Shown: positions 1 to 14,978, numbered from the stretch's first letter. The stretch: 64,000 bases of DNA from Bacilli bacterium (GCA_031549195.1 JAVBQF010000006.1:40091-104090), one strand, 5' to 3'. Notes: generated by a model not told the origin, from the sequence alone. Numbers and translations: made by a program.

Positions 1-37
1 TTTGGTAGTGGCGGTGGACTATAGAATAGTTTAATTT

Positions 38-66
38 TAAAGATTCATAAAAATGAATCTTTTTAA
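38..66 (+). terminator. Rho-independent terminator-like hairpin (AAGATTCAT-aaaa-ATGAATCTT followed by a T-run) at the window start
   Basis: Perfect 9-bp inverted repeat with a 4-nt loop followed by TTTTT, read directly from the sequence. It presumably terminates an upstream gene that lies outside the window. Confidence 0.4.
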
Positions 67-144
67 TTTTTTACTGTAAAAATATTGTCTAATATGATAC
101 AATATTATATATAAAATAATACCAAAACATTGGTGGTGAGATTA

Positions 145-3114
145 ATGGAAGAAGAAAATTTACAAGCAGCAGAAGAAAAAAGAAAAAAAGGAAGTATTGC
201 TTCTAGATATTATTCTCAGCACATGCAAAATAATAGAAATAGAGTTAATCAAGGTAAAAACGGAGGCAAAGATAGCTTAGCAGATGCTCTTGAAAGAAAC
301 AAAATGAAGATAAAAAGAGATGCATTTACAAATGCAATTTCTGCAGCAGCAGGACCAGCAGCGCCTCTTGCAAAAGCGGCATTATCTACGCCAAAAGGGC
401 AAGAAGTAATGGATGATTTGATAAGCAAGACGGAGAGTCCAGAAAAAGCCGGAGAAACATTTATACAAAAAATTAAGATTAAAAAGGAAATAATTATTAC
501 GGCAATCCCCATTGTATTAACGACAGTGGCTTCTTTCTTATTACCAATGCTTCTTATATTACTTCTAAAGAATGCAGATAGTATATTATTTAGTGAACAA
601 GGTGGTAATGTTGATAAAGTAATACAGGATAAAGAAGTAGATTCTGCAAAGGAAGTCTCTGTTTTTACTAAGACAGAAGATTTATATTTAAAGGTAAACC
701 AAGTAGCAAAAGACTATCATAATAAATATGGATTAGAAATTGATAGAGATTTAATAGTTGCTACATTAGTATCGCAACTTCAAAATGATGAGTATGCCTA
801 TAGTGAAAAAACAAAAAAAGATGAAAATGGTAATATAGATTGGGATTGGTATGTAGAAAAGAAGATGATACCACAAGTAGATTTGCTTGCAAAATATCAA
901 ATTATGGAAGTAATTGGTCAAGGATCAGGCTTATGCACATCTCAGTGGCAAGAAGATGGTATCGACATGGAAAAGGTAGCTTCTCATGATACAAAAGCAA
1001 GTGTAATAGACTTTTTTCTAGGTTGGATATTTTATAAGGAAGCTGTAAAAAACGAACGTAACATAAGATGTGTAGCAGCTCCATTTAATGGAGAGTCTGA
1101 TTCTGTTAGTGTAATATCTACAGAAGAAGGAACTTATTCAGTAAATCTAGTAGGGAATGAATTAGTTGAAACAAAAAGTCCTTATACTGGTGGGGTATAC
1201 TTTTGGAATTTGGTTGGGCCAAAAGGATTTATATTTGAATATTATAATGACTATCTAGCTATACCCATAAAGAATGGAGATAAAGAGGCCCAATATGAAG
1301 CAAATAAAGCGCAAATACTTGAAATAGCACACAGTATTTATACTTATAGAAGAGGTCTAATAAACCCAAACTACTGTGAAAACTATAGAATTTTAAAAGA
1401 TCCAGTTGAACCAGAAATAAACGTTCTTCCAAATGATGCCGGTCTATATGGTGGAATATATGATCTAGAAACATATGTTGCAGGAGTAATGTCAATAGAG
1501 TTTCCTCCACATTTAGCAGGTAATACAGAAGCATTAAAAGCATTTGCAATATTAGCAAGAACATATGGGCTTGAAGTGATGCGTAAAGAGGGAAGCATAA
1601 AAAATAGTTCTGAAAATCAAAACTTTCATCCTAATGGAATAAATAATAAACAAATAAAAGATGCTGTTGAGGCTACTAGAGGACTAGTTCTGACTGGTAG
1701 GCAGGATGATCTTTGGGATAAAGATACAGTTGATCAAATTTTAGAAGAAAATGATTGGAGCGATTCTAATAAGAAAAAAATATTCGAATATCAATATTAT
1801 TTATATAATATTTTTATGTCAGAATATGATTCATTTTGTCCAACAACTTCACAAGAAGAAAATGGAGGATATTACCAACTTACTGCCAATCAAAATGGAT
1901 TGAAAATAAGTTCAGATTGGGTAAACGGAATGGGACTTAATAAAAAAGCAATATGTCCATGTAAAGCAAAAGGCTATAATGAAATTCATGTTTCATATGC
2001 TCAAAATAATGAATGGATTCTTTTAAATGGTAGCACAGCTATGAATCCATTTCCACACTATATTAGTTCAGACCGTGATGGACGCCAAGAAGGTGGGTAT
2101 ATGATGTGTTGGCGTAACAAAGATAATGATGGCAATGTTGGTGCAAAAATCTGTCTAAAAAAGAAGTTGGTACCAAACGATTATGGTGAATATGATGTAG
2201 TTGAAGATTGTAATACTCCTTCTGATTATGAATATATATATAGCTATAAACCATCAGGTGGCCATGGTAGAGGGGCTAGTCAATGGGGATTAAGGTACTT
2301 CGCTGAAAAAGGTTATAAAATGGAAGAACTATTGAAGTTATTCTATGACAGAAAAGGATCTGCAAGTTCGAATCATCATGTTCAAATTATGAGACTTGAA
2401 AGTTCTTTGGTTAGTGGACTATGTGATGTTCCAAAGGATTTATTCCCAAATGCCACACTTTACTATAAAGGCGAGATAGCAGTAACTAATAAAAAGTCAG
2501 TTATTTTAAGAGAACCATTGGGTGAATTTTTAGATCAACATAAGGTTGAAGGAGAAAAAAAGAACGGATTAGATCTTTATAAAGAACTAATTGAATCAAA
2601 AGCTAATTTAGCAGGACTTGGAACTGGTGAAGCAGTTGCTCAAGTTGCTATTGCTATGATTTCTAGCTTGGATCAAACATATAAACTTAAAATACCAGTA
2701 TCATTTGATGGTGGTATGAAAGAAGAAGATGCCATAATAGATGGACAATGGGGATCTTCAATTCCATGTGGGCCTTACTCTTGTGTTAAAGGACTAAGTA
2801 ACAGCGGTTTTGTAAACACCGTTTTGACTTTGGCAGGATTTAAATACAAGAGTTACAAAGCTGACCAATGGAGTACTGTTGGATTAAAAAAAGATATTGA
2901 TACTTGTGATGCTAAAAGAGGAGACTTAATTTGGCATCAAGGTGCAGTTATGATAATTCTTGAAAAAGGTGAAGGAAATTCCTTTTATGTAGCAAATGCT
3001 AAAAGTATTGATACAGGTATCATTATAGAAGAGATTCAATGTAATAATAAAACTTTTGCAAAACCTAATTATATAATTGATATGTCAGATTATTATTCAA
3101 AGAACAAGAAATAA
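145..3114 (+). CDS. Membrane-anchored multidomain cell-wall hydrolase: SpoIID/LytB-type lytic transglycosylase domain plus a C-terminal NlpC/P60-like endopeptidase domain. Likely the peptidoglycan hydrolase of a conjugative element.
   Basis: ATG at 145 follows GGTGGTGAG; the ORF track begins at a TTG at 130. There is a TM helix at aa ~120-150 (IIITAIPIVLTTVASFLLPMLLILLL). A SpoIID signature is present (DLETYVAGVMSIEFPPHLAGNTEALKAFAILARTYGLEV ... GGHGRGASQWGLRYFAEKGYKMEELLKLFY). The C-terminal NlpC/P60-like motifs are SCVKGLSNSGFV (catalytic Cys), RGDLIWHQGAVMIIL (His) and FYVANAKS. It sits next to a lipoprotein gene and a VirD4-like ATPase gene. Confidence 0.6.
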   Translation: MEEENLQAAEEKRKKGSIASRYYSQHMQNNRNRVNQGKNGGKDSLADALERNKMKIKRDAFTNAISAAAGPAAPLAKAALSTPKGQEVMDDLISKTESPEKAGETFIQKIKIKKEIIITAIPIVLTTVASFLLPMLLILLLKNADSILFSEQGGNVDKVIQDKEVDSAKEVSVFTKTEDLYLKVNQVAKDYHNKYGLEIDRDLIVATLVSQLQNDEYAYSEKTKKDENGNIDWDWYVEKKMIPQVDLLAKYQIMEVIGQGSGLCTSQWQEDGIDMEKVASHDTKASVIDFFLGWIFYKEAVKNERNIRCVAAPFNGESDSVSVISTEEGTYSVNLVGNELVETKSPYTGGVYFWNLVGPKGFIFEYYNDYLAIPIKNGDKEAQYEANKAQILEIAHSIYTYRRGLINPNYCENYRILKDPVEPEINVLPNDAGLYGGIYDLETYVAGVMSIEFPPHLAGNTEALKAFAILARTYGLEVMRKEGSIKNSSENQNFHPNGINNKQIKDAVEATRGLVLTGRQDDLWDKDTVDQILEENDWSDSNKKKIFEYQYYLYNIFMSEYDSFCPTTSQEENGGYYQLTANQNGLKISSDWVNGMGLNKKAICPCKAKGYNEIHVSYAQNNEWILLNGSTAMNPFPHYISSDRDGRQEGGYMMCWRNKDNDGNVGAKICLKKKLVPNDYGEYDVVEDCNTPSDYEYIYSYKPSGGHGRGASQWGLRYFAEKGYKMEELLKLFYDRKGSASSNHHVQIMRLESSLVSGLCDVPKDLFPNATLYYKGEIAVTNKKSVILREPLGEFLDQHKVEGEKKNGLDLYKELIESKANLAGLGTGEAVAQVAIAMISSLDQTYKLKIPVSFDGGMKEEDAIIDGQWGSSIPCGPYSCVKGLSNSGFVNTVLTLAGFKYKSYKADQWSTVGLKKDIDTCDAKRGDLIWHQGAVMIILEKGEGNSFYVANAKSIDTGIIIEEIQCNNKTFAKPNYIIDMSDYYSKNKK

Positions 3115-3126
3115 CTAGGAGGAACT

Positions 3127-3864
3127 ATGACTAATATAAAAAAAACAATAGTGGCACTAATATTACTAGTTTTTCTTACTGGGTGTCAAGGTAGTTATAC
3201 ATTACATATAGACGAGAATACTTTTAAGGAAGAACTAACAGCAAGTGAGGATGATGCAGCTTATTTTGACTTTGTCGAAGAATATTCTGGATATTCAACA
3301 AGAGGTGCATTTGAACAGGCATACAATTCTAATACAACTTCTCTTTATGACTCGCAAACTTTTCCTGAGTTAGAAGAAAAGGTGGAAGGAATTCCATATT
3401 ATAATAAGAAGTATAATGCAACAGATAGTTTATTAGAATTGAAGTATAGTTATGCCTTTACTTATGATAATTATGCATCTTCTTCTATCATTCAAAAGTT
3501 CTTTCCTGAATTTACAATGACAGAACATGTTGGATATGTAGAATTGAATACTGGTGATACTTGTAATGTATTTTACTACTATCCTAAATTAAAAGAGATA
3601 AGGATAACTATAACAACAGATTTTAATGTAGGTTTAAATAATGCAACAAAGAAGGATGATAATAGTTATACTTGGCTAATATCGAAAGATACAATTAATA
3701 ACAGGACACTTACTAGAGCACTGTTTTTCAATTATGAAAAGGGTGTAATAGCAGCAAATATTAATTGGGTTTTATATATCATAATATTTGTCTTTGCACT
3801 TGCAATTATTGGAATAATTGCTATAATATTTGCTAGAAGCCATGAGAAAAAGATGAAAATATAA
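3127..3864 (+). CDS. Lipoprotein with a C-terminal TM anchor. Function unknown; possibly a T4SS or ICE accessory protein.
   Basis: Signal peptide with lipobox LTGC. The C-terminus is hydrophobic (VLYIIIFVFALAIIGIIAIIFA). RBS AGGAGG lies 7 nt upstream. It lies between the hydrolase and the coupling-protein genes on the same strand. Confidence 0.5.
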   Translation: MTNIKKTIVALILLVFLTGCQGSYTLHIDENTFKEELTASEDDAAYFDFVEEYSGYSTRGAFEQAYNSNTTSLYDSQTFPELEEKVEGIPYYNKKYNATDSLLELKYSYAFTYDNYASSSIIQKFFPEFTMTEHVGYVELNTGDTCNVFYYYPKLKEIRITITTDFNVGLNNATKKDDNSYTWLISKDTINNRTLTRALFFNYEKGVIAANINWVLYIIIFVFALAIIGIIAIIFARSHEKKMKI

Positions 3865-3880
3865 CTTAGGAGGTACAATA

Positions 3881-6361
3881 ATGAAATTTAAAGTAGTTGC
3901 TGAAGCAAGAGATATACTAATTTTTATAATATTCGCAATATTTCTTTTATATGTTGTAGCCCTAGGCGTATTAAACTTTCAAACTTTAGCTGCAACTGGG
4001 AGATTTTTTGGTATAAATCCAATCCCTGCATTCTCACCTGATAATCTAACATATACAATATTCTTTTATATATTTTCTTTAGCAGGCTTATTTATGAGTG
4101 TAAGTTCTTATTTCTTTGAAATGGAATCAGGCTTTGGAGTAAGTTCTTCAAAGAAAGAAAAAGGATATACTAGATGGGCAAAAGATAAGGAAATGTACAA
4201 AGAGTTAAAGTGTGTGCATCCAACAGATGAAAAATCAGAATATGCTGGCGTTCCTTTAATTAGTAATGGAAAAGAACTATGGGTAGATGATGGAGAGTTT
4301 CACAACTTAGTAATAGGAGCAACTGGATCTGGTAAAACACAAAGTACAATATTACCAGCAGTAAAAGTATTAGCTAAGAAAGGCGAGTCAATTATATGTA
4401 CTGACCCTAAGGGTGAAATATATGAAAAAACAGGCGGATTATTAAAAGCAAAGGGCTATAATATTATACTTTTAAACTTTCGTAATCCACAAAGGGGAAA
4501 CGCTTGGAATCCAATTACCTTACCTTACAGGCTTTATAAAAATGACAATAAGGATAAAGCAATAGAGTTATTAGATGACCTTGCTTTAAATATTCTATAT
4601 GAAGAAAATAGCGGTAATGCAGATCCGTTTTGGGAGAAAACATCAGCTGACTATTTTTCAGGATTAACACTTGGAATGTTTGAAGACACGACAGAAGACA
4701 AGATAAATATCAACAGTATTAGCTTAACTACTACAGTTGGTGAAGATAAATGTGGTGGATCAACATATGTAAAAGAATACTTTGGCTTGAAAGATCCTAA
4801 TAGTGCAGCATATATAAATGCAAGTGGTACTATTATGGCACCAAATGAAACAAAGGGAAGTATTATTGCTGTATTCAAACAAAAAATCAAATTATTTTCA
4901 TCTCGTGAGAACTTATCAGAAATGTTATCTTATAGTGATTTTGATATGGAAGATATAGGTAAGAAACCTACAGCAGTTTTCATTATTATTCAAGATGAAA
5001 AGAAGACATATCATTCACTTGCAACTATATTTGTTAAACAATGCTATGAGACGCTTATTGATGTAGCGCAACAAAATGGTGGAAAACTTCCTTGTAGAAC
5101 GAATTTTCTACTAGATGAGTTTGCTAATATGCCACCACTTAAAGATGTTACAACAATGATTACAGCAGCTCGTTCAAGACAAATAAGGTTTACACTTATT
5201 ATTCAGAACTTTGCACAGTTAACACAAGTATATGGTAAGGAAAATGCAGAGACTATAAAAGGTAACTGCGGTAACTTAATATATTTAATATCAACAGAGC
5301 TTGCAGCACTCGAAGAAATTAGTAAGTTATGCGGTGAAGTTAAATCTAAGAAAGATGATAAAACTGCATCAACACCACTAGTTACAGTAAGTGACTTGCA
5401 ACGTATGAAGCAGTTTGATCAAATAGTATTAAGAATGAGATCACATCCTTTTAAAACATCTTTTGTACCAGATTTTAAAATAAACTGGGGAAACACGAAA
5501 TATGAAAAAGTTGATTATCCAGAAAGAGAGAAAAAGCCTGTACAAGTATTTGACATTAGAGAATATGTAAAGGAAAAAAAGCAACAAAAGATAAAGGAAA
5601 TGATGGGAGAAGCGGGAAATGCAGCTCCAGGTGGAGCTATGCCTCCGTTTCCAGCACCTGCTCCAACACCAGTACAAGGAGCTTTTCCACCACCTGCAGC
5701 AGCACCTGCACCATATGGCGGGGAAGAGCTGATACCAGCACCACGTCCAATTATGCAACCTGTTACTGATTCAGTATCAACTACACCAAAGCCAGCACCA
5801 AAACCAATTCCAGACTTTGATGTTAATGACTTGGTTAAGAAGATAGATGCTAAGATTGCAGCAATGGAAGCTGAAGAGAAAAAGAACAAAGAAGAAGCTA
5901 AGGAACAACCTAAAGAAGTAGTAAAAGAAGAAATAATTGAAGAACCTAAATTGGAGCCGATTGCACCAAAGCCAATATATGAAAGTACAAATAATGGAAG
6001 AAGTGCACTATTGCCTTTAGAGGAACCTAGAAAAGAAATGTCAACACAACAAATTCCTTCAAATGATGTAGATGAATATAAACCACTTATATCATCAGGT
6101 GTAATAGAAAATAAGGTTAATAATATAATTGCTTCTAGATTATTAAGTACTGAAGAAGAAGTAAAACCACAGGCAATTGAAAAGGTGGAGCCAGTAGTAG
6201 AAATGGATAGACCGCCTATAGGAGATATAACAAGAGCATTAACTGCAGAACCAATTATTCCAACAGAGAATGCCTATGTTCCTAACAAGCCAACTCCAAC
6301 AATTAGATTAGAAGATGTTAAAGAAGATGATAAATTCTTCGATGATTTCTTTGAAGACTAA
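3881..6361 (+). CDS. Type IV secretion coupling protein (VirD4/TraG/TraD-like ATPase) with a ~300-aa Pro/Ala/Glu/Lys-rich C-terminal tail
   Basis: Two N-terminal TM helices. Walker A is VIGATGSGKTQS, the Walker B-like motif is FLLDEFANMPPL, and there is a TLIIQNFAQL motif. The Walker A to Walker B spacing is ~265 aa, as in VirD4-type T4CPs rather than FtsK-type. RBS is GGAGG. The low-complexity tail reads APGGAMPPFPAPAPTPVQGAFPPPAAAPAP...PKPAPKPIP. Confidence 0.6.
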   Translation: MKFKVVAEARDILIFIIFAIFLLYVVALGVLNFQTLAATGRFFGINPIPAFSPDNLTYTIFFYIFSLAGLFMSVSSYFFEMESGFGVSSSKKEKGYTRWAKDKEMYKELKCVHPTDEKSEYAGVPLISNGKELWVDDGEFHNLVIGATGSGKTQSTILPAVKVLAKKGESIICTDPKGEIYEKTGGLLKAKGYNIILLNFRNPQRGNAWNPITLPYRLYKNDNKDKAIELLDDLALNILYEENSGNADPFWEKTSADYFSGLTLGMFEDTTEDKININSISLTTTVGEDKCGGSTYVKEYFGLKDPNSAAYINASGTIMAPNETKGSIIAVFKQKIKLFSSRENLSEMLSYSDFDMEDIGKKPTAVFIIIQDEKKTYHSLATIFVKQCYETLIDVAQQNGGKLPCRTNFLLDEFANMPPLKDVTTMITAARSRQIRFTLIIQNFAQLTQVYGKENAETIKGNCGNLIYLISTELAALEEISKLCGEVKSKKDDKTASTPLVTVSDLQRMKQFDQIVLRMRSHPFKTSFVPDFKINWGNTKYEKVDYPEREKKPVQVFDIREYVKEKKQQKIKEMMGEAGNAAPGGAMPPFPAPAPTPVQGAFPPPAAAPAPYGGEELIPAPRPIMQPVTDSVSTTPKPAPKPIPDFDVNDLVKKIDAKIAAMEAEEKKNKEEAKEQPKEVVKEEIIEEPKLEPIAPKPIYESTNNGRSALLPLEEPRKEMSTQQIPSNDVDEYKPLISSGVIENKVNNIIASRLLSTEEEVKPQAIEKVEPVVEMDRPPIGDITRALTAEPIIPTENAYVPNKPTPTIRLEDVKEDDKFFDDFFED

Positions 6362-6388
6362 AAAGACTGTCATTAATTGACAGTTTTT
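6361..6388. terminator. Bidirectional terminator hairpin between the T4CP gene (+) and the activase gene (-)
   Basis: AAAAGACTGTCA-ttaat-TGACAGTTTTT: a 7-bp GC-containing stem flanked by an A-run and a T-run. Confidence 0.5.
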
Positions 6389-7335
6389 AAATTACTTAAA
6401 CCATTATCGCATTTATTACCCCATGCATCAAGAAGGCTATTATTACTTTTTACACAAATTATTTCACATCCGTTTGGACATTTATTACATTCAATACTTC
6501 TTGTTTCAAACTTAATATCTAGTACATCAAAGCTGAATAAGTTTTCTTTTTTTTCTTTTCTCGCTAAGATAGCAACACCTAAAGCCCCCATAAGATGCCC
6601 ATATTGAGATACCTTAACTGTTTCTCCTAAATATTTTTCAAATGCTTTTTGGACACCAATGTTCTTGCTTACACCACCTTGAAATATTATAGGAGCGGTT
6701 ATTTTTTTCCCCTTAGCAACATTATTCAAGTAATTTCTTACTATACTTTCACAAAGTCCTGCCACAATATCTTCCTTCTTATGTCCGGTACCTGCCTTAT
6801 GAACTAAATCTGATTCTGCAAACACAGTACATCTAGCAGCTATTTTAGTTGGATTTGTTGAGCTAAGAGCAATATTTCCAAATTCCTCAACGGGAATATT
6901 TAGTCTCCTAGCTTGACTTGACAAGAAAGCACCACATCCTGCTGCACATAATGTATTCATAGCATAGTCAGTAACAATACCATCTTCTATCAAAATGATC
7001 TTGGAGTCCTGCCCACCAATTTCTAATATTGTCTTAGTATCAGGATACATTGATAGTGTCCCTATCGCATGAGCAGTTATCTCATTTTTAACAGTATTAG
7101 CTTTAAGTATTGTGCCTATTAATCGTCTAGCACTTCCAGTAGTACCAACACTTACAATCTGATATAACTCTTGATTAAAGTTACTTTTCAATATTCTAAG
7201 TAGAGTAGTTATTGCAGTTATTGGACTGCCATTTGTTTCAATATAAGCTTCTGATAGAATATTATTGTATTCATCTATTATCACACCCTTTGTTGAAACT
7301 GAGCCGACATCAACCCCTAAGTAGCATTTATTCAT
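6373..7335 (-). CDS. CoA-substrate-specific enzyme activase (BadF/BadG/BcrA/BcrD-type ASKHA ATPase, HgdC-like) with a C-terminal Cys-rich segment
   Basis: The N-terminus MNKCYLGVDVGSVSTKGVIIDE is a typical acetate/sugar-kinase-fold phosphate-1 motif. The C-terminus is CNKCPNGCEIICVKSNNSLLDAWGNKCDNG. The start overlaps the upstream gene's stop (ATGAATAA), which indicates translational coupling. Confidence 0.6.
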   Translation of the reverse strand: MNKCYLGVDVGSVSTKGVIIDEYNNILSEAYIETNGSPITAITTLLRILKSNFNQELYQIVSVGTTGSARRLIGTILKANTVKNEITAHAIGTLSMYPDTKTILEIGGQDSKIILIEDGIVTDYAMNTLCAAGCGAFLSSQARRLNIPVEEFGNIALSSTNPTKIAARCTVFAESDLVHKAGTGHKKEDIVAGLCESIVRNYLNNVAKGKKITAPIIFQGGVSKNIGVQKAFEKYLGETVKVSQYGHLMGALGVAILARKEKKENLFSFDVLDIKFETRSIECNKCPNGCEIICVKSNNSLLDAWGNKCDNGLSNLKTVN

Positions 7336-8407
7336 CTTTTTTCTCCTTACTTAAAACTAACATGTCATGAAATGCTTCTAATCTAGTTTTAATACCTTCC
7401 ATACTTGTTTGATTATCAAATGAAAAGTATATAATTGGCATTCCTTCTTCTTTACATACTTTATCTATTATTGGTATAGCAGTAATCTCAGGAGTACACC
7501 CAAATGGTTTAATATGAATTATACCATCATAACCATCATCTATAAGCTTCTTAGCTCTATAAACATTATCAAGTCCATCTGCACCAATCTTATGCTTAAC
7601 ATAATCATTAACATATCTAAGCATTTTTTTACCTTCAAATCTCTTCTTTATAAGTAAATAAGTAACATTTGTGAACCTTTTTACTTCAATATTCATACTT
7701 GCTAACTCTTTTTCTAAAAAGTAACTAGCAAATGGTTCCATAGAAGTATATAATTCTCCAATAATACCAACTTTAATTCTATTTTCTTTCTTATTAACTG
7801 GAATTTCCTTAAACTTTTTCTTATACTTAAAATATAAATATGTCAATTTAGTAAATGTTCTGACTTTAGTAAAGTCATTATGCATCTCCTCTTTAATCTT
7901 TAAAAATTCCCCACTATTTACTTCGAAGCCAATATTTAATCTTATATAGTCATCCAACTTATCCATGTAATTAATCATTAAAAGAGTAAGTAGAGTATAA
8001 TATCCATATTTAAAGAAGTTTAAATCTTCATTTATACATTTGAACTTTTTATATAGAGTAATCGGCGTTAGAGAGTCACTATCTGTTAGTGCATAAAAAT
8101 CAAAATCATATCCTAAATCCTTCAATATTTTTTTTTGCACTTCAGCATAATATCCATAACGACATCCACCACCAGCTTGTATTAATGTATTAGCTCCCAT
8201 CTCTAAGCTTTCAATAAAATTACCAAGATTATATTTAAAGGGGATACATACAAAATCAGGTGCATATTTAGAACCGAGTTCGATAGTCTTTTTCGTAATT
8301 GGTGGAGTATTTAATATTTTCACTTTTAATATTTTACTAATTAAATAGCTAATTGGAATGGAGTAATCACCAAGATGTGGAAAAGCAATTATCTTTTCAT
8401 CATTCAT
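7328..8407 (-). CDS. 2-hydroxyacyl-CoA dehydratase-like or DUF2229-type protein (partner subunit of the activase)
   Basis: Family-level call based on the conserved activase plus two dehydratase-like subunit gene triad. The likely start is MNDEKII at 8407, with RBS GGGGG, and it overlaps the upstream gene's stop (TATGAATGA). The ORF track extends to 8458, which would overlap the upstream gene by 59 bp. Confidence 0.45.
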   Translation of the reverse strand: MNDEKIIAFPHLGDYSIPISYLISKILKVKILNTPPITKKTIELGSKYAPDFVCIPFKYNLGNFIESLEMGANTLIQAGGGCRYGYYAEVQKKILKDLGYDFDFYALTDSDSLTPITLYKKFKCINEDLNFFKYGYYTLLTLLMINYMDKLDDYIRLNIGFEVNSGEFLKIKEEMHNDFTKVRTFTKLTYLYFKYKKKFKEIPVNKKENRIKVGIIGELYTSMEPFASYFLEKELASMNIEVKRFTNVTYLLIKKRFEGKKMLRYVNDYVKHKIGADGLDNVYRAKKLIDDGYDGIIHIKPFGCTPEITAIPIIDKVCKEEGMPIIYFSFDNQTSMEGIKTRLEAFHDMLVLSKEKKDE

Positions 8408-9326
8408 AAAAATTACCCCCATTTCTCTTTTCTTTAATAACATCAATAAAACTTTCAAGTCTCGTAATCATACCAGTATCATTATTAAGCTCATCTACAA
8501 TAACTTGAATTGTTGGGATATCTAAACTCCTTATAATTAATTCATTCGTCAAAGAATCTGGTCCGCAAGGAAAAGAAGTAACTAATATTATTCCATCAAT
8601 CTTATCTTTATAATGAGTAATTGCTCCAAGAAGTTCTCTATTAAAAGTCCAGTAGTTAGAGTAACTTATCTCATTACATTCATAATCTAATTTATCTTTA
8701 TTATAAATATCACTATATATAACATTTATATCCTTTTTCTCAAAATAACTTGAAATAGTAGTGCCTATAAATTCATCATACAAATTGTAAGGATGGCCAG
8801 CTAAAAGAATTTTAATGTTTTGCCCATCAAGTAATAAATTTTGCTTGATAATTCTCTTTTTTTCTATTTCTTCACTGTACTTTTTAGCTCTAATATAAGC
8901 TTTAATTACTTTTATTTTGTTTAATTTTAGTATTCTTCCAATATCAAAAAAAGCATCAGCTTCTTCTTGGTTATTATCGATATCAACATTAAACTTTAGT
9001 ATTCTTATATCGTCAAATAGGTTAAATGTTAAATCATATAAAGCCATGAAGTTAGTACACATCTTTTCGTTTTTCTTAATACTGGATAAGCGAGTGATTA
9101 AGATATAATCACATTTGTTTTTTAAATTTTCAACATGTCCAACAAATATTTTGAGCGCAAGGCAAGATTCATCTATAGTCTTTTTAATACCTTCGTCTAA
9201 TATTTGTTTGTTTGTCTTGTCACTTACTACAATATCAATATTTAATTCTTCAAAGAACTTGCTCCACATGTTAATATAACGATAGTAAAGTAGTCCTCTT
9301 GGTATTCCAATTTTTAGTTTATTCAA
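8400..9326 (-). CDS. 2-hydroxyacyl-CoA dehydratase-like or DUF2229-type protein (first gene of the triad)
   Basis: It is co-oriented with the two downstream genes and its stop overlaps their start. Composition and length fit the uncharacterised dehydratase-like partners of CoA activases. Confidence 0.45.
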   Translation of the reverse strand: MNKLKIGIPRGLLYYRYINMWSKFFEELNIDIVVSDKTNKQILDEGIKKTIDESCLALKIFVGHVENLKNKCDYILITRLSSIKKNEKMCTNFMALYDLTFNLFDDIRILKFNVDIDNNQEEADAFFDIGRILKLNKIKVIKAYIRAKKYSEEIEKKRIIKQNLLLDGQNIKILLAGHPYNLYDEFIGTTISSYFEKKDINVIYSDIYNKDKLDYECNEISYSNYWTFNRELLGAITHYKDKIDGIILVTSFPCGPDSLTNELIIRSLDIPTIQVIVDELNNDTGMITRLESFIDVIKEKRNGGNFYE

Positions 9327-9443
9327 CGAAATTCACCTCATCTAAATATACTTTTTATACATTGAAATATTATTAAATTAAATCGACAATTAATTTGGCA
9401 AAAGCAGCAAAATTTGCTATAATATTAATGATTAGAGGTAGTT

Positions 9444-10073
9444 ATGAAAAAGAAGTTATTGATATTATTAATGATATTTTTGATACCATTTAATGTATCT
9501 GCAATTACTGTTGGAACAAGTGTTGATACAGTTGTTTTAAGTAAGTGTGTCGATGGGGACACAGCAAGGTTTATGCTTAACAACGAAGAAATAAAAGTAA
9601 GATTTTTAGCTATTGATACTCCTGAATCTGTGCATCCAACTAAAGAAGTTGAAGTATATGGGAAGGATGCATCTGAATATACTTGTAAGGTATTAAGTGA
9701 TGCTGAAAAGATAGAACTTGAATACGATCCAAATAGTAACAAACAAGATAAATATGGAAGATACTTGGCTTGGATATTTGTTGATGATGTGTTACTTCAA
9801 GATACTTTAGTTAAAGTTGGATACGCTAAAGTGGCATATTTATATGGTGACTATTTATATACTGAAACACTAAAAGAAAGTGAAAAGTTAGCTAAGAAAG
9901 AAATGCTTGGTATCTGGAATGAGGTAGTAGTAGAGGAAGTCAATACAGAAACCAAAGCAGAAGAAAAAGAAGAAAAAAAATTTAGTTTATTAGACTTAAT
10001 TCTTGATTTCTTAAATGAAATTTTGGAGAAATTCATTGAGTTTATAGATAATCTAATTGAAGATATGTTATAA
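9444..10073 (+). CDS. Secreted thermonuclease (staphylococcal nuclease, SNase-fold) with an unusual acidic/amphipathic C-terminal tail
   Basis: Signal peptide MKKKLLILLMIFLIPFNVSA. The core DGDTARF...RFLAIDTPE...YGKDASEYT...DKYGRYLAWIFVDD...LVKVGYAKVAYLY aligns motif by motif with the S. aureus nuclease active-site regions. Confidence 0.85.
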   Translation: MKKKLLILLMIFLIPFNVSAITVGTSVDTVVLSKCVDGDTARFMLNNEEIKVRFLAIDTPESVHPTKEVEVYGKDASEYTCKVLSDAEKIELEYDPNSNKQDKYGRYLAWIFVDDVLLQDTLVKVGYAKVAYLYGDYLYTETLKESEKLAKKEMLGIWNEVVVEEVNTETKAEEKEEKKFSLLDLILDFLNEILEKFIEFIDNLIEDML

Positions 10074-10092
10074 TTTATATATGGAGGAAATT

Positions 10093-10569
10093 ATGAAGAT
10101 AAATGATAAAGTAAAAAATATAATAATAGTAGTATTAGTTTTGTTAATAGTATTCGGTGGTTCTTTTTTTGCATCAGAACTAAGACAACCTGATGAAGAA
10201 GTAACTACAGAATACTCAGTATATAATGAATTAACACTTAATGGATATTTAGATCTTGTTAAAAGTGATAAATTAACAGTTATCTATGTTGGTAATGAAA
10301 CTTGCGTAGCTTGCGCAACATTTGATCCAATATTAAAACCAATTGTTGAAGAAAATAACATAGTTATATATCATTTGAATTTGGCAAGAGTAAAAACACA
10401 GACAGATGCGAATAAGGTATATGAAAGTTATGATGATTTCAAAGAAAATGGAATTAATACACCAACATTATTAATAGTAAAAGGTGGCAAAGTCATTGCA
10501 GCACAAGTAGGTGCTAAAACAACTGATGTCACTACAGAATTTTTTAAAACTAATAACATTATAAAGTAG
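10093..10569 (+). CDS. Membrane-anchored thioredoxin-like protein (CxxC = CVAC)
   Basis: N-terminal TM (IIIVVLVLLIVFGGSFFA). The thioredoxin-fold context is LTVIYVGNETCVACATFDPIL. The start is placed at the ATG after GGAGG at 10093; the track starts at 10057. Confidence 0.5.
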   Translation: MKINDKVKNIIIVVLVLLIVFGGSFFASELRQPDEEVTTEYSVYNELTLNGYLDLVKSDKLTVIYVGNETCVACATFDPILKPIVEENNIVIYHLNLARVKTQTDANKVYESYDDFKENGINTPTLLIVKGGKVIAAQVGAKTTDVTTEFFKTNNIIK

Positions 10570-10577
10570 GTGAATAT

Positions 10578-11012
10578 ATGAGAATATTATCTCAAGCAAA
10601 AAAATTTGTACAAAAATATCCTCTTACTATTGCTTGGAGAATTAAGCAAAATAGCAGTATTGTAGAAAAATATATTAATCCCGATGAAAAGCCAATATAT
10701 GTTTTTACTGGTCAAATGAGCGAAAGCAGTCTTGATATATTTAGTACTGCCATAGTGGTACTTACAGACAAAAGAATTATAATAGGAAGAAAAAGAGTGA
10801 TATTTGGGTATTTTTTTTACTCAATAATGCCTCAAATGTTCAATGATTTAAATGTAAAAGCTAATTTGATATGGGGTAAAGTATATATCGATACAGTCAA
10901 AGAGTTAGTTACTATATCAAATATTGATAAAAAGGCTTTAGATGAAATAGAAACAAATATTAGCACTTATATGATGAATTTAAAAAAAGAGTATCCAAGT
11001 AAAGAAGAGTAG
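10578..11012 (+). CDS. Hypothetical protein, possibly bacterial PH-domain-like
   Basis: RBS AGGTGA. No diagnostic motif. Size and hydrophobic pattern resemble bPH-domain proteins, which often sit beside membrane proteins. Confidence 0.3.
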   Translation: MRILSQAKKFVQKYPLTIAWRIKQNSSIVEKYINPDEKPIYVFTGQMSESSLDIFSTAIVVLTDKRIIIGRKRVIFGYFFYSIMPQMFNDLNVKANLIWGKVYIDTVKELVTISNIDKKALDEIETNISTYMMNLKKEYPSKEE

Positions 11013-11084
11013 AATAGGATAGTTCTAATAAATAATAGTATTTATTAGAATTTTTTTTATGATATAATGAAAATAGGTGATAAT

Positions 11085-12308
11085 ATGAAAAGGGTAATTG
11101 GCTTTATTGTAGGAATCATTATATTTTATTTTATATTTCAAATATCTGTCACATTCTTTAAAACTTCGCACAATGTAGAATATATAAAGGAAATTGATGA
11201 TAAAAAATTTATAATTAATGAGATATATTCAAAAAATAATTCTGGTAATTATTATTCAATCAACATTAAAATAGATGATAAAGAATTTATTTTTTATGTT
11301 GGTAATAGTTTTAATAAACAAAAAAATATAGTTAAAGACATTAAATATTATCAAAAAGATAATCTTTTCTGTGTGTATCCAGTATACATAAAAGATAAAG
11401 TAGGAGAGGACCTTATTTGTGATATAGATGGTAATTTATATTCGTATACTAGCATTTATGATAAATATGATTTAAAAGATTTTGCAAGTGAATTGCCTAA
11501 CTTTGTTTATAACAAAAAAACGGTATCAACAACAAAAGAAAAAATAGCAGATGTCTATACATACAATGAAAATATTGAAGAAAATGAATATGTAATTATA
11601 TATAATTACAAGACTCTTTTAAAGGTTAGTCAAATTATGAATACGGAAATAGATTTCTCTTCATATGATGTTTATCAAAATATATATGGTACATTAGTCG
11701 ATAAGTATTATATTTTACCAATATCAGTTAATAAGTCACCTTACTTATCATTTAATATTATTGATATATTAAGTGCTGATTCAAAAGTTTTGAATATGAA
11801 TCAATCTACATCTACTAGTTTTTATGTAAATGGAGCAGTAGATAACAAACTGTATTTCTTTGACAAAATAGATTTAAAACAATATATGATTTCTCCTAAA
11901 GATCAGGATTATGAATTAATTGGTGATAGTGAACTAGGTGGGAAAGTCTACGAGAACGGGATTTGGAAAGATGTAAGTATATATGACTTGAAAAATAATA
12001 CTATATTTACCGAAGATTTTAGTAAATTAGCAAAATTTAATTACAAAGAGGCATTTAAATCAAATAGATACTATTATTTCTATGATGAAAAAAGTAATTT
12101 TTATAGAGTTCATCAAGATTATAAAGAAAGCCCCGTATTACTCTTTAATAAGAAGAACTTAAAAGAAATAAAAGTTGTAGATGATAATATATATTATATA
12201 ATTGATACAACTCTTTATAGATTTAATGAAAGTGGTGAAATTCCAATAGCAGAAAGACCAGAATTTAAGTATAATTCTACAAATATTTATAGTGTCTATA
12301 TCAAGTAG
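11085..12308 (+). CDS. Membrane-anchored hypothetical protein: N-terminal TM plus a large extracytoplasmic Tyr/Asn/Lys-rich domain
   Basis: TM is VIGFIVGIIIFYFIFQI. The start is the second ATG after AGGTGA. No recognisable catalytic motif. Confidence 0.4.
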   Translation: MKRVIGFIVGIIIFYFIFQISVTFFKTSHNVEYIKEIDDKKFIINEIYSKNNSGNYYSINIKIDDKEFIFYVGNSFNKQKNIVKDIKYYQKDNLFCVYPVYIKDKVGEDLICDIDGNLYSYTSIYDKYDLKDFASELPNFVYNKKTVSTTKEKIADVYTYNENIEENEYVIIYNYKTLLKVSQIMNTEIDFSSYDVYQNIYGTLVDKYYILPISVNKSPYLSFNIIDILSADSKVLNMNQSTSTSFYVNGAVDNKLYFFDKIDLKQYMISPKDQDYELIGDSELGGKVYENGIWKDVSIYDLKNNTIFTEDFSKLAKFNYKEAFKSNRYYYFYDEKSNFYRVHQDYKESPVLLFNKKNLKEIKVVDDNIYYIIDTTLYRFNESGEIPIAERPEFKYNSTNIYSVYIK

Positions 12309-12400
12309 ACACTTTTATTTTAAAAGTAACAAATTTGGACTTTTTCTTTTACTAATATTAATGTATACTATATGTAAGAATAAGATAGGGAGTGAATAAT

Positions 12401-14041: not shown

Positions 14042-14086
14042 TCTTCAGTTTTTGTTCTATCAGGCAGATTTTTACATATATTTTAA

Positions 14087-14115
14087 TTGACTTTAAATTT
14101 TATTTAAGTTAAAAT
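14087..14115 (+). promoter_or_regulatory. Sigma-A-type promoter for tRNA-Cys (TTGACT-17-TAAAAT)
   Basis: Read directly from the sequence. It lies 18 nt upstream of the tRNA 5' end. Confidence 0.45.
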
Positions 14116-14133
14116 TAGAATGTACTTTAATTT

Positions 14134-14207
14134 GGGTCCATAGCCAAGTGGTAAGGCGTGGGACTGCAACTCCCTGATCGTTGGTTCAAATCCGACTGGG
14201 CCCTCCA
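14134..14207 (+). tRNA. tRNA-Cys (anticodon GCA) with encoded CCA
   Basis: Manual cloverleaf: acceptor GGGTCCA pairs with TGGGCCC, with a G-U wobble at pair 4. The D-arm is GCC/GGC. The anticodon loop is CTGCAAC, giving GCA. The T-arm is GTTGG-TTCAAAT-CCGAC, followed by discriminator T and CCA. Confidence 0.8.
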
Positions 14208-14209
14208 AT

Positions 14210-14270
14210 TAGAAGATTAAGAAGATTCCAAACTTTGGGGGTCTTCTTTTATTTTAAAATAATGTATAAT
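14210..14270 (+). repeat. Intergenic repeat A, copy 1 (~60 bp): GAAGA...TCTTC hairpin plus T-run, then a TG-extended -10 (TGTATAAT)
   Basis: TAGAAGATTAAGAAgattccAACTTTGGGGGTCTTCTTTTATTTtAAAATAATGTATAAT. It matches the copy at 14897-14956 except for one 6-nt block and one A/T change. It lies immediately 3' of tRNA-Cys. Confidence 0.7.
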
Positions 14271-14293
14271 TAAATTAAAAGGGAGAGATAATA

Positions 14294-14841: not shown

Positions 14842-14844
14842 AAT

Positions 14845-14878
14845 TAAAGAAAGGTAAAAAAATAAAAGTTTGGAAGCC
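14845..14878 (+). repeat. Intergenic repeat B, copy 1 (AAAGAAAGGTA...AAAAGTTTGGAAGCCC)
   Basis: Near-identical to 15557-15591. Both copies lie directly after the stop of a cassette gene. Confidence 0.6.
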
Positions 14879-14896
14879 CTTTATATTTTCTCTAGT

Positions 14897-14956: not shown

Positions 14957-14978
14957 CTATTTTAGAAGGTGATAAAAA

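What the first reader, a model, noticed from the sequence alone, without database searches (positions are those of the whole stretch)
1..6361. Window opens inside a probable conjugative element: SpoIID-LT/NlpC-P60 hydrolase, lipoprotein, and a VirD4-like coupling ATPase
Three co-directional genes encode the hallmark envelope-crossing functions of Gram-positive conjugation systems. The first is a peptidoglycan hydrolase with two catalytic domains, the second a lipoprotein, and the third a T4CP with Walker A VIGATGSGKT and Walker B FLLDEF. Everything downstream (from 6373) is on the opposite strand and metabolic, so the element either ends near 6361 or carries cargo. The remaining machinery (relaxase, VirB4-like ATPase, integrase) must lie upstream of position 1.
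Basis: partly seen in the sequence, partly recalled or inferred. Interest (0 to 1): 0.6.

Follow-up and report, generated by a model that had tools for sequence, protein, structure and literature searches.

The report
Chromosomal type IV secretion system, not an ICE
The three genes are real conjugation-type genes, but they belong to a secretion-machine gene cluster that sits in the core chromosome and is inherited vertically in hundreds of species of uncultured small-genome gut Bacilli, with no relaxase or integrase in sight, so it looks like a domesticated machine rather than a mobile element.

Summary
All three genes exist as described: a membrane-anchored SpoIID-type hydrolase (145-3114), a lipoprotein (3127-3864) and a VirD4-type coupling ATPase (3881-6361). 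The hydrolase's second, NlpC/P60-like domain scores below threshold and lacks the catalytic Cys and His.

Window nt 1-24 encode FGSGGGL-stop, the invariant C-terminus of a VirB4-like ATPase.

The ICE reading is not supported:
- At least 483 species-representative genomes, all uncultured gut Bacilli (probably order RF39), carry the same ordered cluster: Tad-like pilus genes, VirB2-like pilins, VirB6, VirB3-like, TraC-like, VirB4, hydrolase, lipoprotein(s), T4CP.
- The top 80 hits come from 80 different assemblies.
- Its chromosomal flanks follow the VirB4 tree.
- VirB4 has dN/dS of 0.007-0.04 and the same dS as the neighbouring RmuC gene.
- No relaxase or integrase was found in about 120 analysed relative loci or in the 64-kb window.

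The cluster does not end at 6361. After an inverted three-gene block it resumes at 9444-14041, next to a syntenic tRNA-Cys.

The nearest plasmid system, B. thuringiensis pBMB64, is only 30-32% identical. The closest concept is the relaxase-less chromosomal T4SS of Patescibacteria. The transported substrate is unknown.

The parts
1..24 (+). Last 7 codons plus stop (FGSGGGL*) of the VirB4-like T4SS ATPase gene. The rest of the gene lies upstream of the window.
   Evidence: Sequence read. It matches the invariant C-terminus ...ELASFGSGGGL of the 598-aa VirB4 alignment A2. In all relatives VirB4 directly precedes the hydrolase.
25..144 (+). Intergenic region. It holds a hairpin (10-bp stem at 39-62) followed by a U-run, a promoter-like site at 70-98, and the ribosome-binding site GGTGGTGAG.
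   Evidence: RNA fold gives -18.1 kcal/mol, z = -3.6, and 0 of 200 shuffles fold as well. The promoter-like TTTACT-17-TATGAT is, but that scan is not discriminating in this AT-rich DNA.
145..3114 (+). Membrane-anchored cell-wall hydrolase in the VirB1 slot of the T4SS. It has a cytoplasmic N-tail, a TM helix (nt ~490-567), a family-specific N-domain, a SpoIID lytic-transglycosylase domain (nt 1462-1695 and 2248-2349) and a degenerate NlpC/P60-like C-domain (nt ~2791-2961).
   Evidence: Pfam SpoIID 45 bits. PDB SpoIID chains 5i1t and 5txu match aa 707-740. NlpC/P60 is sub-threshold and the catalytic Cys and His are replaced. The gene occupies the same position as the hydrolases of all relatives. 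Only 27-30% identical to its best relatives.
3127..3864 (+). Lipoprotein (lipobox LTGC, Cys20) with a C-terminal TM anchor. It is the partner of the hydrolase cassette. Its fold is unknown.
   Evidence: G19 and C20 are invariant in 25 of 25 family members. No Pfam or NCBIfam match, no PDB profile hit, and the single-sequence AF2 model failed (pLDDT 43).
3881..6361 (+). VirD4-type coupling protein (T4CP). It has an N-terminal TM region, an NTPase core (Walker A nt 4316-4339, Walker B nt 5105-5122), a 280-aa P/E/K/A-rich linker and an invariant C-terminal peptide FFDDFFED (nt 6335-6358).
   Evidence: The core (560 aa) is 83% identical to L008. The FFDDFF-type tail is present in 74 of 74 clade T4CPs and absent from the pBMB64 VirD4.
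6373..9326 (-). Inverted three-gene block (BcrAD/BadFG-type activase ATPase, HGD-D-like, DUF2229) inserted between the T4CP and the tail of the cluster. It is chromosomal metabolism, not cargo of an element.
   Evidence: Pfam. The same block sits at the same position and orientation in L010, L011, L013 and L014, and without DUF2229 in L017. Identities are 52-73%, comparable to the T4CP's 77%. A hairpin at 6366-6384 lies between the convergent genes.
9444..14041 (+). Tail of the conserved neighbourhood: secreted SNase-type nuclease (9444-10073), membrane thioredoxin/PedC/TraF-like protein (10057-10569), bPH_3 protein (10578-11012), 413-aa single-TM protein (11067-12308) and 549-aa polytopic protein (12392-14041). 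The best promoter-like site of the region is at 9395-9423.
   Evidence: Pfam. Synteny with L005 12353-16303, L024, L030, L034 and L015. A distant relative on the GCA_016648615.1 contig has hydrolase-T4CP-SNase in a row. Promoter with 11 of 12 matches plus TG.
14134..14207 (+). tRNA-Cys(GCA) directly after the 549-aa gene. It is a conserved chromosomal neighbour, not an attachment site.
   Evidence: tRNA-Cys also follows the homologous gene in L002 and, after one extra gene, in L005. No att-like direct repeat of it was found in 1-16000.

Best explanation
Window 1-6361 is the distal part of a chromosomal, vertically inherited type IV secretion system of Gram-positive conjugation ancestry. It belongs to a large lineage of uncultured, small-genome gut Bacilli, probably order RF39. 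It is not a discrete mobile element.

The full cluster, seen in relatives, runs in this order:
- a Tad-like pilus module (DUF5411, CpaB/RcpC-like, CpaF-like ATPase, two TadB/C-like proteins, a 54-aa Flp-like pilin, a TadE-like protein, a degenerate ParA/TadZ-like protein);
- one to four VirB2-like pilins and a Cys-rich single-TM protein;
- VirB6/TrbL-like, VirB3-like, TraC-like and VirB4;
- then the three window genes.

Inferred mechanism:
- The Tad-like pilus and pilins make contact with another cell.
- The membrane-anchored hydrolase, here with only its SpoIID-type lytic-transglycosylase domain predicted active, opens the peptidoglycan locally.
- VirB4, VirB6 and VirB3 form the channel.
- The T4CP selects and energises a cytoplasmic substrate, probably using its invariant FFDDFF C-terminal peptide as a docking site.

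The identity, conservation and non-mobility of the cluster are shown by the data. The substrate is not. I lean towards exported DNA or nucleoprotein exchanged between cells using an unlinked or unrecognised relaxase (about 40%), or exported proteins serving a dependent, contact-based lifestyle (about 35%), over DNA uptake (about 10%).
For: - Gene identities.
- The VirB4 3' end is at nt 1-24.
- The same gene order holds in 84 non-redundant loci.
- Component annotations. 27 of 48 pilin-family members hit PF18895. Flp-like ORF.
- At least 483 GTDB species representatives carry the VirB4, and the top 80 come from 80 different assemblies, including two closed chromosomes of 1.31 and 1.52 Mb. A further 427 metagenome stretches encode a relative of the CpaF-like ATPase of the adjoining Tad module.
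- The downstream chromosomal flank tracks the VirB4 tree.
- Housekeeping genes sit inside or next to the cluster. These are dnaG-rpoD-trmK in L008, an Asn/Asp-tRNA synthetase in L002, and LeuS, PPDK and TrmL-like upstream.
- Macro-synteny (549-aa gene, tRNA-Cys, C39 ABC transporter, ftsA) is shared by the window and L002.
- Median pairwise identity is 81% for VirB4, against 73% for an aminoacyl-tRNA synthetase and 80% for RmuC.
- VirB4 dN/dS is 0.007-0.04 at dS 0.4-0.9, equal to the dS of flanking RmuC.
- Window against L008: RpoD 91%, T4CP core 83%, DnaG 56%.
- There is no compositional anomaly. The cluster is 30-35% GC, like ftsAZK and polC.
- The MobP3 relaxase of the nearest plasmid system has no tblastn hit in 90 loci or in the window. 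None of the Pfam-scanned conserved-family representatives has a credible relaxase or recombinase domain; the only such hit is a sub-threshold MobL match on the CpaF-like ATPase (18 bits against a cutoff of 28.5).
- The nearest plasmid VirD4 and VirB4 are only 32% and 30% identical.
Against: - Only about 10-20 kb on each side of the cluster and one 64-kb window were inspected. A relaxase, oriT or integrase elsewhere in the genome would not have been seen, and several conserved proteins have no recognisable family.
- The sequence upstream of window position 1 could not be retrieved for this genome itself.
- Vertical inheritance rests on flank synteny, identity correlations (r about 0.5-0.8) and dS comparisons, not on a formal co-phylogeny against a species tree.
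- The RF39 assignment comes from record titles (Clostridium sp. CAG:710, Ca. Onthousia, 'Bacilli/Tenericutes bacterium') plus my own knowledge of GTDB, not from a tool result.
- A co-located, highly conserved T4CP with a DNA-binding-type all-alpha domain is what a working conjugation system would have.
- The system is homologous, module for module, to a true conjugative plasmid.
Confidence: 0.72

Rival explanations
1. One reading: the genes are part of an integrative conjugative element (or its recent remnant) whose relaxase, VirB4 and integrase lie upstream and which ends near 6361 or carries cargo.
For: - The T4CP passes the NCBIfam 'conjugal transfer protein, CD1115 family' cutoff.
- VirB4 is indeed directly upstream.
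- The whole apparatus is homologous to that of the conjugative plasmid pBMB64.
- tRNA-Cys lies at the far end of the neighbourhood.
Against: - No relaxase or integrase was found within about 20 kb upstream or 10 kb downstream in about 120 analysed relative loci, or in the window.
- The cluster is single-copy in the top 80 hits and present in at least 483 species representatives.
- Its flanks are conserved clade by clade.
- Housekeeping genes are interleaved with it.
- Its dS equals that of flanking genes, with dN/dS of about 0.01-0.04.
- tRNA-Cys is a syntenic neighbour in distant relatives, and no att-like repeat was found.
- There is no GC anomaly.
Confidence: 0.07
2. The cluster is a DNA-uptake (competence-like) machine. 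The Tad-like pilus captures external DNA, the secreted SNase processes it, and the T4SS imports it, as in the Helicobacter ComB or archaeal Ced systems.
For: - A secreted SNase gene lies directly after the T4CP in one clade, in the window and on the distant GCA_016648615.1 contig.
- RmuC, a DNA recombination protein, is a frequent neighbour.
- There is no relaxase.
- From my own knowledge: Tad pili support transformation in Micrococcus, and small auxotrophic genomes benefit from nucleotide or DNA scavenging.
Against: - From my own knowledge, known T4SS-based importers (ComB) lack a VirD4-type T4CP. Here the T4CP is adjacent, intact and strongly conserved, with an invariant C-terminal docking-type peptide.
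- SNase and RmuC are each present only in subsets of genomes.
- The NCBIfam CedB and CedD hits are negligible (16.9 and 14.7 bits).
Confidence: 0.1
3. The cluster is a decaying, non-functional relic of an ancient ICE that has simply not yet been deleted.
For: - No relaxase is present.
- The window's hydrolase has a catalytically dead C-terminal domain.
- The cluster is interrupted by an inverted metabolic block.
Against: - All ORFs are intact across more than 80 genomes.
- VirB4 dN/dS is 0.007-0.04.
- Walker motifs are intact.
- An invariant C-terminal tail is kept in 74 of 74 T4CPs.
- The cluster is retained in genomes of only 1.3-1.5 Mb that have lost much else (PMC6784871).
Confidence: 0.03

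Closest known systems
Conjugation region of Bacillus thuringiensis plasmid pBMB64 (NZ_CP004872.1): MobP3 relaxase, CD1115-family VirD4, TrbL, PrgI, VirB4 (DUF87), plus a SAF/AAA/T2SSE Tad-like module
   Same: It is the best plasmid hit for both the T4CP (32% identity) and VirB4 (30%). It has the same module set: VirD4, TrbL/VirB6, PrgI/VirB3-like, a TraC-like protein, VirB4, and a CpaB(SAF), ATPase, TadB/C-like pilus module.
   Different: - pBMB64 has a MobP3 relaxase next to its T4CP and is a typed conjugative plasmid. The relaxase has no homologue in 90 loci or the window.
- The gene order differs.
- Identity is only 25-35%, against 73-99% for VirB4 within the clade.
- The pBMB64 VirD4 lacks the FFDDFF tail.
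Chromosomal, mostly relaxase-less MPF_FATA-derived T4SS of Patescibacteria/Saccharibacteria (PMC12102498; reviewed in PMC12857230)
   Same: Both are lineage-wide, chromosomal T4SSs of monoderm-conjugation ancestry in uncultured bacteria with reduced genomes. Both lack a linked relaxase and carry VirB2-like pilin paralogues matching PF18895. The review calls VirB2-type pilins and a non-conjugative essential role 'unique' to Patescibacteria among monoderms.
   Different: - The lineage is different (Bacilli).
- Here the T4CP is adjacent and highly conserved, whereas in Patescibacteria only 148 of 5,713 T4CP genes lie near virB4.
- A Tad-like module is fused upstream.
- Whether this VirB4 falls in or near the Patescibacteria clade was not tested.
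- There is no experimental evidence of essentiality here.
VirB1-like multidomain cell-wall hydrolases of Gram-positive T4SSs (PrgK of pCF10, TraG of pIP501, Orf14 of Tn916; PMC12857230)
   Same: They share an N-terminal cytoplasmic tail and TM anchor followed by two or three peptidoglycan-hydrolase domains, encoded next to VirB4. In PrgK only one domain is the active one and the others are regulatory, which parallels the dead NlpC/P60-like domain here.
   Different: - The glycan-cleaving domain here is SpoIID-type, not SLT or muramidase.
- The catalytic half is swapped between genomes whose VirB4 proteins are 97% identical: SpoIID+CHAP, M23, M23+phage lysozyme, or glucosaminidase+CHAP.
Sporulation protein SpoIID and the FtsK/SpoIIIE translocases
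   Same: The hydrolase shares the SpoIID lytic-transglycosylase domain. The T4CP shares the general P-loop translocase ancestry.
   Different: - TIGR02870 scores 45 bits against a cutoff of 234.75.
- The T4CP has no FtsK_SpoIIIE Pfam hit.
- A genuine FtsK with alpha, motor and gamma domains is encoded separately at 31434-33686.

Membership tests
Integrative conjugative element / self-transmissible conjugative element | Type IV coupling protein (VirD4/TraG family) | tested here: met
   Pfam T4SS-DNA_transf 206 bits. NCBIfam conju_CD1115 297.7 bits against a cutoff of 250.
Integrative conjugative element / self-transmissible conjugative element | VirB4-family ATPase and mating-pore components | tested here: met
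   Window nt 1-24 are the VirB4 C-terminus. VirB6/TrbL_4, VirB3-like, TraC-like and VirB4 are present in all relatives.
Integrative conjugative element / self-transmissible conjugative element | Relaxase (MOB) with oriT | tested here: not met
   MobP3 of the nearest plasmid system gives 0 tblastn hits in 90 loci plus the 64-kb window. None of the Pfam-scanned representatives of the conserved families has a credible relaxase domain; one sub-threshold MobL hit falls on the CpaF-like ATPase. Caveat: only about 10-20 kb of flank was seen, and novel relaxases cannot be excluded.
Integrative conjugative element / self-transmissible conjugative element | Integrase or recombinase and flanking att repeats | tested here: not met
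   No recombinase was found in the flanks of relatives. No att-like direct repeat was found in 1-16000. tRNA-Cys is a syntenic neighbour in L002 and L005. The left end of this genome's cluster is outside the window.
Integrative conjugative element / self-transmissible conjugative element | Patchy, horizontally transferred distribution with variable insertion sites | tested here: not met
   At least 483 species representatives carry it, one copy per assembly in the top 80. The flanks follow the VirB4 tree. Its dS equals that of a flanking gene.
VirD4-type T4CP, CD1115 subfamily (NF045973) | Score above the curated cutoff; N-terminal TM region; Walker A and B; all-alpha domain | tested here: met
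   297.7 bits against 250. TrwB_AAD_bind 77 bits. Motifs. The pass is narrow and identity to plasmid members is only 32%.
FtsK/SpoIIIE septal DNA translocase | FtsK_SpoIIIE motor with alpha and gamma domains | tested here: not met
   The T4CP has no such Pfam hit. A separate FtsK is at 31434-33686.
Sporulation SpoIID orthologue (TIGR02870) | Equivalog score of at least 234.75; about 340 aa; sporulation context | tested here: not met
   45.1 bits. The protein is 989-994 aa, membrane-anchored and sits in the T4SS cluster.
NlpC/P60 cysteine peptidase | Pfam gathering score and the catalytic Cys-His pair | tested here: not met
   16.3 bits against a cutoff of 23. Cys becomes Asn and His becomes Ala relative to L024, L026 and L034 (the alignment is at only 19-28% identity, so confidence is moderate).
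Co-opted chromosomal MPF_FATA-type T4SS (Patescibacteria type) | Chromosomal, lineage-wide, no linked relaxase, VirB2-like pilins | tested here: met
   Compared with the descriptions read.
Co-opted chromosomal MPF_FATA-type T4SS (Patescibacteria type) | VirB4 inside the monophyletic Patescibacteria clade; required for epibiotic growth | not testable with these tools
   No Patescibacteria VirB4 sequences could be fetched within the remaining caps. No experimental data exist for this lineage.
Tad (type IVc) pilus | CpaF/TadA ATPase, TadB/C platform, CpaB/RcpC, Flp-type pilin, pseudopilins, TadZ, prepilin peptidase | tested here: inconclusive
   T2SSE 92 bits. RcpC is marginally sub-threshold (28.5 bits against 28.8). 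The TadB/C-like assignment rests only on weak similarity to pBMB64 proteins. A 54-aa Flp-like ORF and a TadE-like N-terminus are seen. The ParA-like protein has no Pfam or PDB match. No prepilin peptidase was seen. None of these genes lies in the window.

The most novel reading that the evidence does not exclude
This hyper-conserved, relaxase-less T4SS plus Tad-like pilus is a core cell-to-cell interaction organelle of the entirely uncultured RF39-type gut Bacilli. It would be functionally parallel to the essential T4SS of epibiotic Saccharibacteria, used to attach to and exchange macromolecules with partner bacteria on which these auxotrophic 1.3-1.5 Mb genomes depend. The fast-swapping hydrolase/lipoprotein cassette and hypervariable VirB6 and pilins would set partner specificity. 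If so, it would be a second, independent domestication of monoderm conjugation machinery, and a concrete lead to why RF39 has never been cultured.
Probability: 0.3. Interest if true: 0.85.

Novelty: new variant of a known kind. Interest (0 to 1): 0.62.

Why it matters
RF39-type Bacilli are prevalent in human and animal guts. They have strongly reduced genomes with many auxotrophies and no cultured member (PMC6784871, PMC9606305).

A roughly 20-kb secretion and pilus cluster is kept in hundreds of their species. Its motor ATPase is as conserved as core informational genes (VirB4 dN/dS about 0.01-0.04). That level of constraint suggests the cluster is central to how these organisms live.

A 2025 review states that VirB2-type pilins and a non-conjugative essential role are unique to Patescibacteria among monoderms (PMC12857230). 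This cluster suggests a second such case inside Bacillota.

It offers three testable handles:
- the invariant FFDDFF tail of the coupling protein;
- the swappable hydrolase cassette;
- the question of whether any relaxase exists in closed genomes.

I found no paper in the searchable library linking RF39 with a T4SS.

Tried and rejected
- **Retrieving the sequence upstream of window position 1.** Exact look-ups of the T4CP and lipoprotein returned only an 8.6-kb Logan contig that starts inside the hydrolase. P0001's 114.7-kb NCBI contig was not on record. Upstream content is therefore inferred from nt 1-24 and from relatives.
- **Hydrolase as a query in genome contigs.** No relatives found.
- **Word-indexed homologue searches.** The hydrolase gave 2 hits and the lipoprotein only itself, because these proteins diverge too fast.
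- **Structure and profile searches.** The single-sequence AF2 model of the lipoprotein was useless (pLDDT 43), so no fold search was run. Profile searches of the lipoprotein family, the ParA-like family and the pilin family against PDB sequences gave nothing significant.
- **att repeats and tRNA-Cys as an integration site.** No supporting repeat was found, and the tRNA is syntenic in relatives.
- **Promoter scan.** The number of sites equals the shuffle expectation (90 against 89.4), so it was used only descriptively.
- **GC and skew anomaly.** None.
- **Literature.** Searches for RF39 with T4SS or VirB4 found nothing relevant. I could not confirm from the held text that Ca. Onthousia or CAG-710 are RF39.
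- **Rejected readings.** FtsK/SpoIIIE, a sporulation SpoIID orthologue and a decaying relic were each rejected (see the membership tests and rival explanations).

Full report
**1. The observation**

The first 6.4 kb hold three co-directional + strand ORFs.

- *Gene 3 (3881-6361, 826 aa)* is a VirD4-type coupling protein.
  - Pfam gives T4SS-DNA_transf 206 bits, TraG-D_C 87 bits and TrwB_AAD_bind 77 bits.
  - NCBIfam 'VirD4-like conjugal transfer protein, CD1115 family' scores 297.7 bits against a cutoff of 250.
  - Walker A GATGSGKT is at aa 146 and FLLDE at aa 409.
  - It has no FtsK_SpoIIIE hit. A genuine FtsK with alpha, motor and gamma domains is encoded elsewhere in the window, at 31434-33686.
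- *Gene 2 (3127-3864, 245 aa)* has a lipobox, LTGC. Its Gly19-Cys20 pair is invariant in 25 of 25 homologues. It also has a C-terminal TM helix and matches no known family.
- *Gene 1* most likely starts at ATG 145, giving 989 aa, identical to database protein P0001.
  - It has a TM anchor and a significant SpoIID domain (45 bits against a cutoff of 23). The C-terminal SpoIID motif matches PDB chains 5i1t and 5txu.
  - It is far from the sporulation SpoIID equivalog (45 bits against 234.75).
  - The claimed NlpC/P60 domain is sub-threshold (16.3 bits against 23).
  - Aligned with relatives that keep the catalytic residues, the window protein has Asn for the Cys and Ala for the His. I therefore predict that only one of the two domains is catalytically active.
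Only 6373-9326 is inverted (BcrAD-type activase, HGD-D-like, DUF2229). From 9444 the + strand resumes.

**2. What lies upstream**

Window nt 1-24 read TTT GGT AGT GGC GGT GGA CTA TAG, which translates to FGSGGGL-stop. This is the invariant C-terminus (...ELASFGSGGGL) of a 598-aa VirB4-like ATPase that directly precedes the hydrolase in every relative.

Between it and gene 1 lies a 120-nt spacer. It contains a stable hairpin followed by a U-run (-18.1 kcal/mol, z = -3.6). The three window genes may therefore form their own transcription unit.

**3. The cluster in relatives**

*How the loci were obtained*
- The T4CP has thousands of homologues. The best 120 are 59-84% identical, and almost all are unnamed MAG proteins.
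- Contexts were fetched through four of them.
The top 80 come from 80 different assemblies.
- A metagenome scan with the CpaF-like ATPase alignment found 427 confirmed stretches.

*Gene order*

My own ORF calling and clustering of these loci gives one strictly ordered cluster:
- DUF5411;
- CpaB/RcpC-like (SAF domain);
- CpaF-like T2SSE ATPase;
- two TadB/C-like membrane proteins;
- a 54-aa Flp-like pilin (MKEATGELNMT...);
- a TadE-like protein;
- a degenerate ParA-like protein;
- one to four VirB2-like pilins (27 of 48 match PF18895), often with a Cys-rich single-TM protein between them;
- VirB6/TrbL-like;
- a VirB3-like protein;
- a TraC-like protein (PF26593);
- VirB4;
- hydrolase;
- one or two small lipoproteins;
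- T4CP.

*The window beyond 6361*
- Window genes 9444-14041 (SNase, thioredoxin/PedC/TraF-like, bPH_3, 413-aa and 549-aa membrane proteins) match the genes that follow the T4CP in L005, L015, L024, L030 and L034.
- A distant relative (29% identical hydrolase) has hydrolase-T4CP-SNase in a row.
- The inverted Bcr/HGD/DUF2229 block sits at the same place in L010, L011, L013 and L014, and without DUF2229 in L017.
- The neighbourhood therefore runs at least to 14041, next to tRNA-Cys.

**4. Mobile element or resident machine?**

Several independent lines point to a resident, vertically inherited locus.

- *Distribution.* Hundreds of species carry it, one copy each in the top 80. These include closed chromosomes of 1.31 and 1.52 Mb.
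- *Position.* When loci are ordered by VirB4 similarity, each clade has its own conserved downstream flank. Examples are rhodanese-VTT-RmuC-DUF3603-Tyr/Trp-tRNA synthetase, SNase-bPH-39-22-29, and the Bcr block followed by Trx-bPH-22-29.
- *Interleaved housekeeping genes.*
  - dnaG-rpoD-trmK follow the T4CP in L008.
  - An Asn/Asp-tRNA synthetase lies inside the tail in L002.
  - LeuS, PPDK and a TrmL-like gene lie upstream of the Tad module.
  - tRNA-Cys follows the 549-aa gene in the window and in L002, and follows it after one extra gene in L005.
  - The order 549-aa gene, tRNA-Cys, C39 ABC exporter, ftsA is shared by the window and L002.
- *Selection and age.*
  - Median pairwise identity among 84 genomes is 81% for VirB4. 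It is 80% for RmuC and 73% for the tRNA synthetase.
  - For pairs whose VirB4 proteins are 97-99% identical, dS is already 0.4-0.9 and dN/dS is 0.007-0.04. VirB4 dS (0.64) equals that of flanking RmuC (0.70) in the same pair.
  - This is old divergence under strong constraint, not recent transfer.
- *Baseline for the window itself.* Against L008, RpoD is 91% identical, the T4CP core 83% and DnaG 56%.
- *No relaxase or integrase.* The MobP3 relaxase of the closest plasmid system has no tblastn hit in 90 loci or the 64-kb window. None of the Pfam-scanned conserved-family representatives carries a credible relaxase or recombinase domain.
- *No att-like repeat and no compositional anomaly*.
- *Core chromosome.* The rest of the window holds ftsA, ftsZ, ftsK, sepF, divIVA, dnaE, polC, dnaG and rpoD.

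**5. Notable anatomy**

- *Invariant T4CP tail.* The T4CP ends in FFDDFF[D/E][N/D/E] in 74 of 74 clade members. The tail follows a hypervariable Pro/Glu/Lys/Ala-rich linker of 100-350 aa and is absent from the plasmid VirD4. I infer that it is a docking peptide. From my own knowledge, this resembles the acidic C-terminal tail of F-plasmid TraD, which binds TraM.
- *Fast-evolving envelope parts.*
  - Median identity is 32% for VirB6 and 44% for the hydrolase.
  - The window's hydrolase and lipoprotein are only 27-30% identical to their best relatives, while its T4CP is 77% identical.
- *Swappable hydrolase cassette.*
  - Between genomes with 97% identical VirB4, only the N-terminal 40% or so of the hydrolase aligns.
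  - The catalytic domains differ: SpoIID+CHAP, M23, M23+phage lysozyme, or glucosaminidase+CHAP.
  - The partner lipoproteins change family with them, and some genomes carry two cassettes in tandem.
  - This conserved motor with variable surface is the pattern expected for a machine that meets other cells, phages or host immunity.

**6. Mechanism**

What is shown: the component set, its order, its conservation and its chromosomal residence.

What I infer:
- The Tad-like pilus and VirB2-like pilins mediate contact.
- The anchored hydrolase opens the wall locally, here through its SpoIID-type domain only.
- The thioredoxin-like membrane protein may serve the many invariant cysteines of the exported components.
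- VirB4, VirB6 and VirB3 form the channel.
- The T4CP recruits a cytoplasmic substrate.

The substrate is open. An adjacent, intact T4CP argues for export rather than ComB-like uptake. DNA exchange with an unlinked or unrecognised relaxase and protein delivery are both live possibilities.

**7. Comparison with known systems**

- *Closest plasmid system.* B. thuringiensis pBMB64 carries MobP3, a CD1115-family VirD4, TrbL, PrgI, VirB4 and a SAF/AAA/T2SSE module. Homology is module for module, but only 25-35% identical.
- *Closest concept.* The chromosomal, mostly relaxase-less MPF_FATA-derived T4SS of Patescibacteria has VirB2-like pilins (PMC12102498). A 2025 review calls it unique among monoderms (PMC12857230).
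- *How this system differs from the Patescibacteria one.* It is in Bacilli, has a linked and conserved T4CP, and is fused to a Tad-like module.
- *Literature.* I found no paper in the library that connects RF39 with a T4SS.

**8. Limits**

- The genome's own upstream sequence could not be retrieved.
- Relaxase absence was tested only locally.
- Vertical inheritance has not yet been tested against a species tree.
- The RF39 label rests on record titles and my own knowledge.
- The lipoprotein's fold is unresolved.

**Verdict**

The 'conjugative element' interpretation is only partly right. The better reading is a domesticated, lineage-wide chromosomal T4SS with a Tad-like pilus module: a new variant of a known kind, of moderate to high interest.

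Noticed in passing
window 14203-14291 and 14890-14977 (ORF 14294-14617 between them): An ~88-nt direct repeat (76-83% identical) starts at the 3' end of tRNA-Cys. It holds a terminator hairpin, an extended -10 promoter-like site and a ribosome-binding site. The two copies flank a truncated GNAT acetyltransferase ORF (Acetyltransf_3 profile positions 1-95 of 138) and precede the HAD hydrolase gene. It looks like a duplicated regulatory cassette or the scar of a small insertion.
   Followed up: partly
window 6335-6358 (T4CP C-terminus) and all clade T4CPs: The terminal peptide FFDDFF[DE][NDE] is invariant in 74 of 74 T4CPs of this clade and follows a hypervariable low-complexity linker. It is absent from the nearest plasmid VirD4. 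It is a candidate partner-docking motif.
   Followed up: partly
relatives, e.g. L010 11831-14709 against L011, L012; L063, L071, L076, L079, L081, L082, L084: The hydrolase catalytic half and its partner lipoprotein(s) are exchanged between genomes whose VirB4 proteins are 97% identical. Several genomes carry two hydrolase-lipoprotein cassettes in tandem.
   Followed up: partly
window 41440-43218 (with a LysR regulator at 40441-41337): A 592-aa HerA-like DUF87 P-loop ATPase sits between a LysR-type regulator and sepF/divIVA. Its role is unknown (HerA-type helicase or defence-associated ATPase?).
   Followed up: no
window 60368-62005 and 25849-27930: The first is a 545-aa protein with a prepilin N-methylation motif plus DUF6273, related to the Cys-rich pilin-like proteins found inside and next to the T4SS cluster in relatives. 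The second is a C39-peptidase ABC exporter (bacteriocin-type) that also recurs near the cluster in other genomes (L002, L097, L130).
   Followed up: partly
metagenome loci L097 4070-8230, L123 4005-7349, L140 3569-6697, L144 830-3991, L103 5638-8547: Very large secreted proteins (1,000-1,400 aa) lie directly upstream of the Tad-like module. They have a signal peptide and no Pfam match, except one with a VWA domain. They are candidate adhesins or pilus-associated proteins.
   Followed up: partly
L155, L157-L159, L120, L122, L123, L127, L138: In some metagenome contigs the Tad-like module is followed by unrelated genes instead of the T4SS core. In a few genomes (L019, L022, L039, L044, L064) the T4SS core lacks the adjacent Tad module. 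The two modules are therefore usually, but not always, linked.
   Followed up: no
window 22025-22274 (-) and 62038-62238 (+): Two T-box leaders. The first precedes the asnA-like gene at 20495-21478 and a GNAT-like gene.
   Followed up: no
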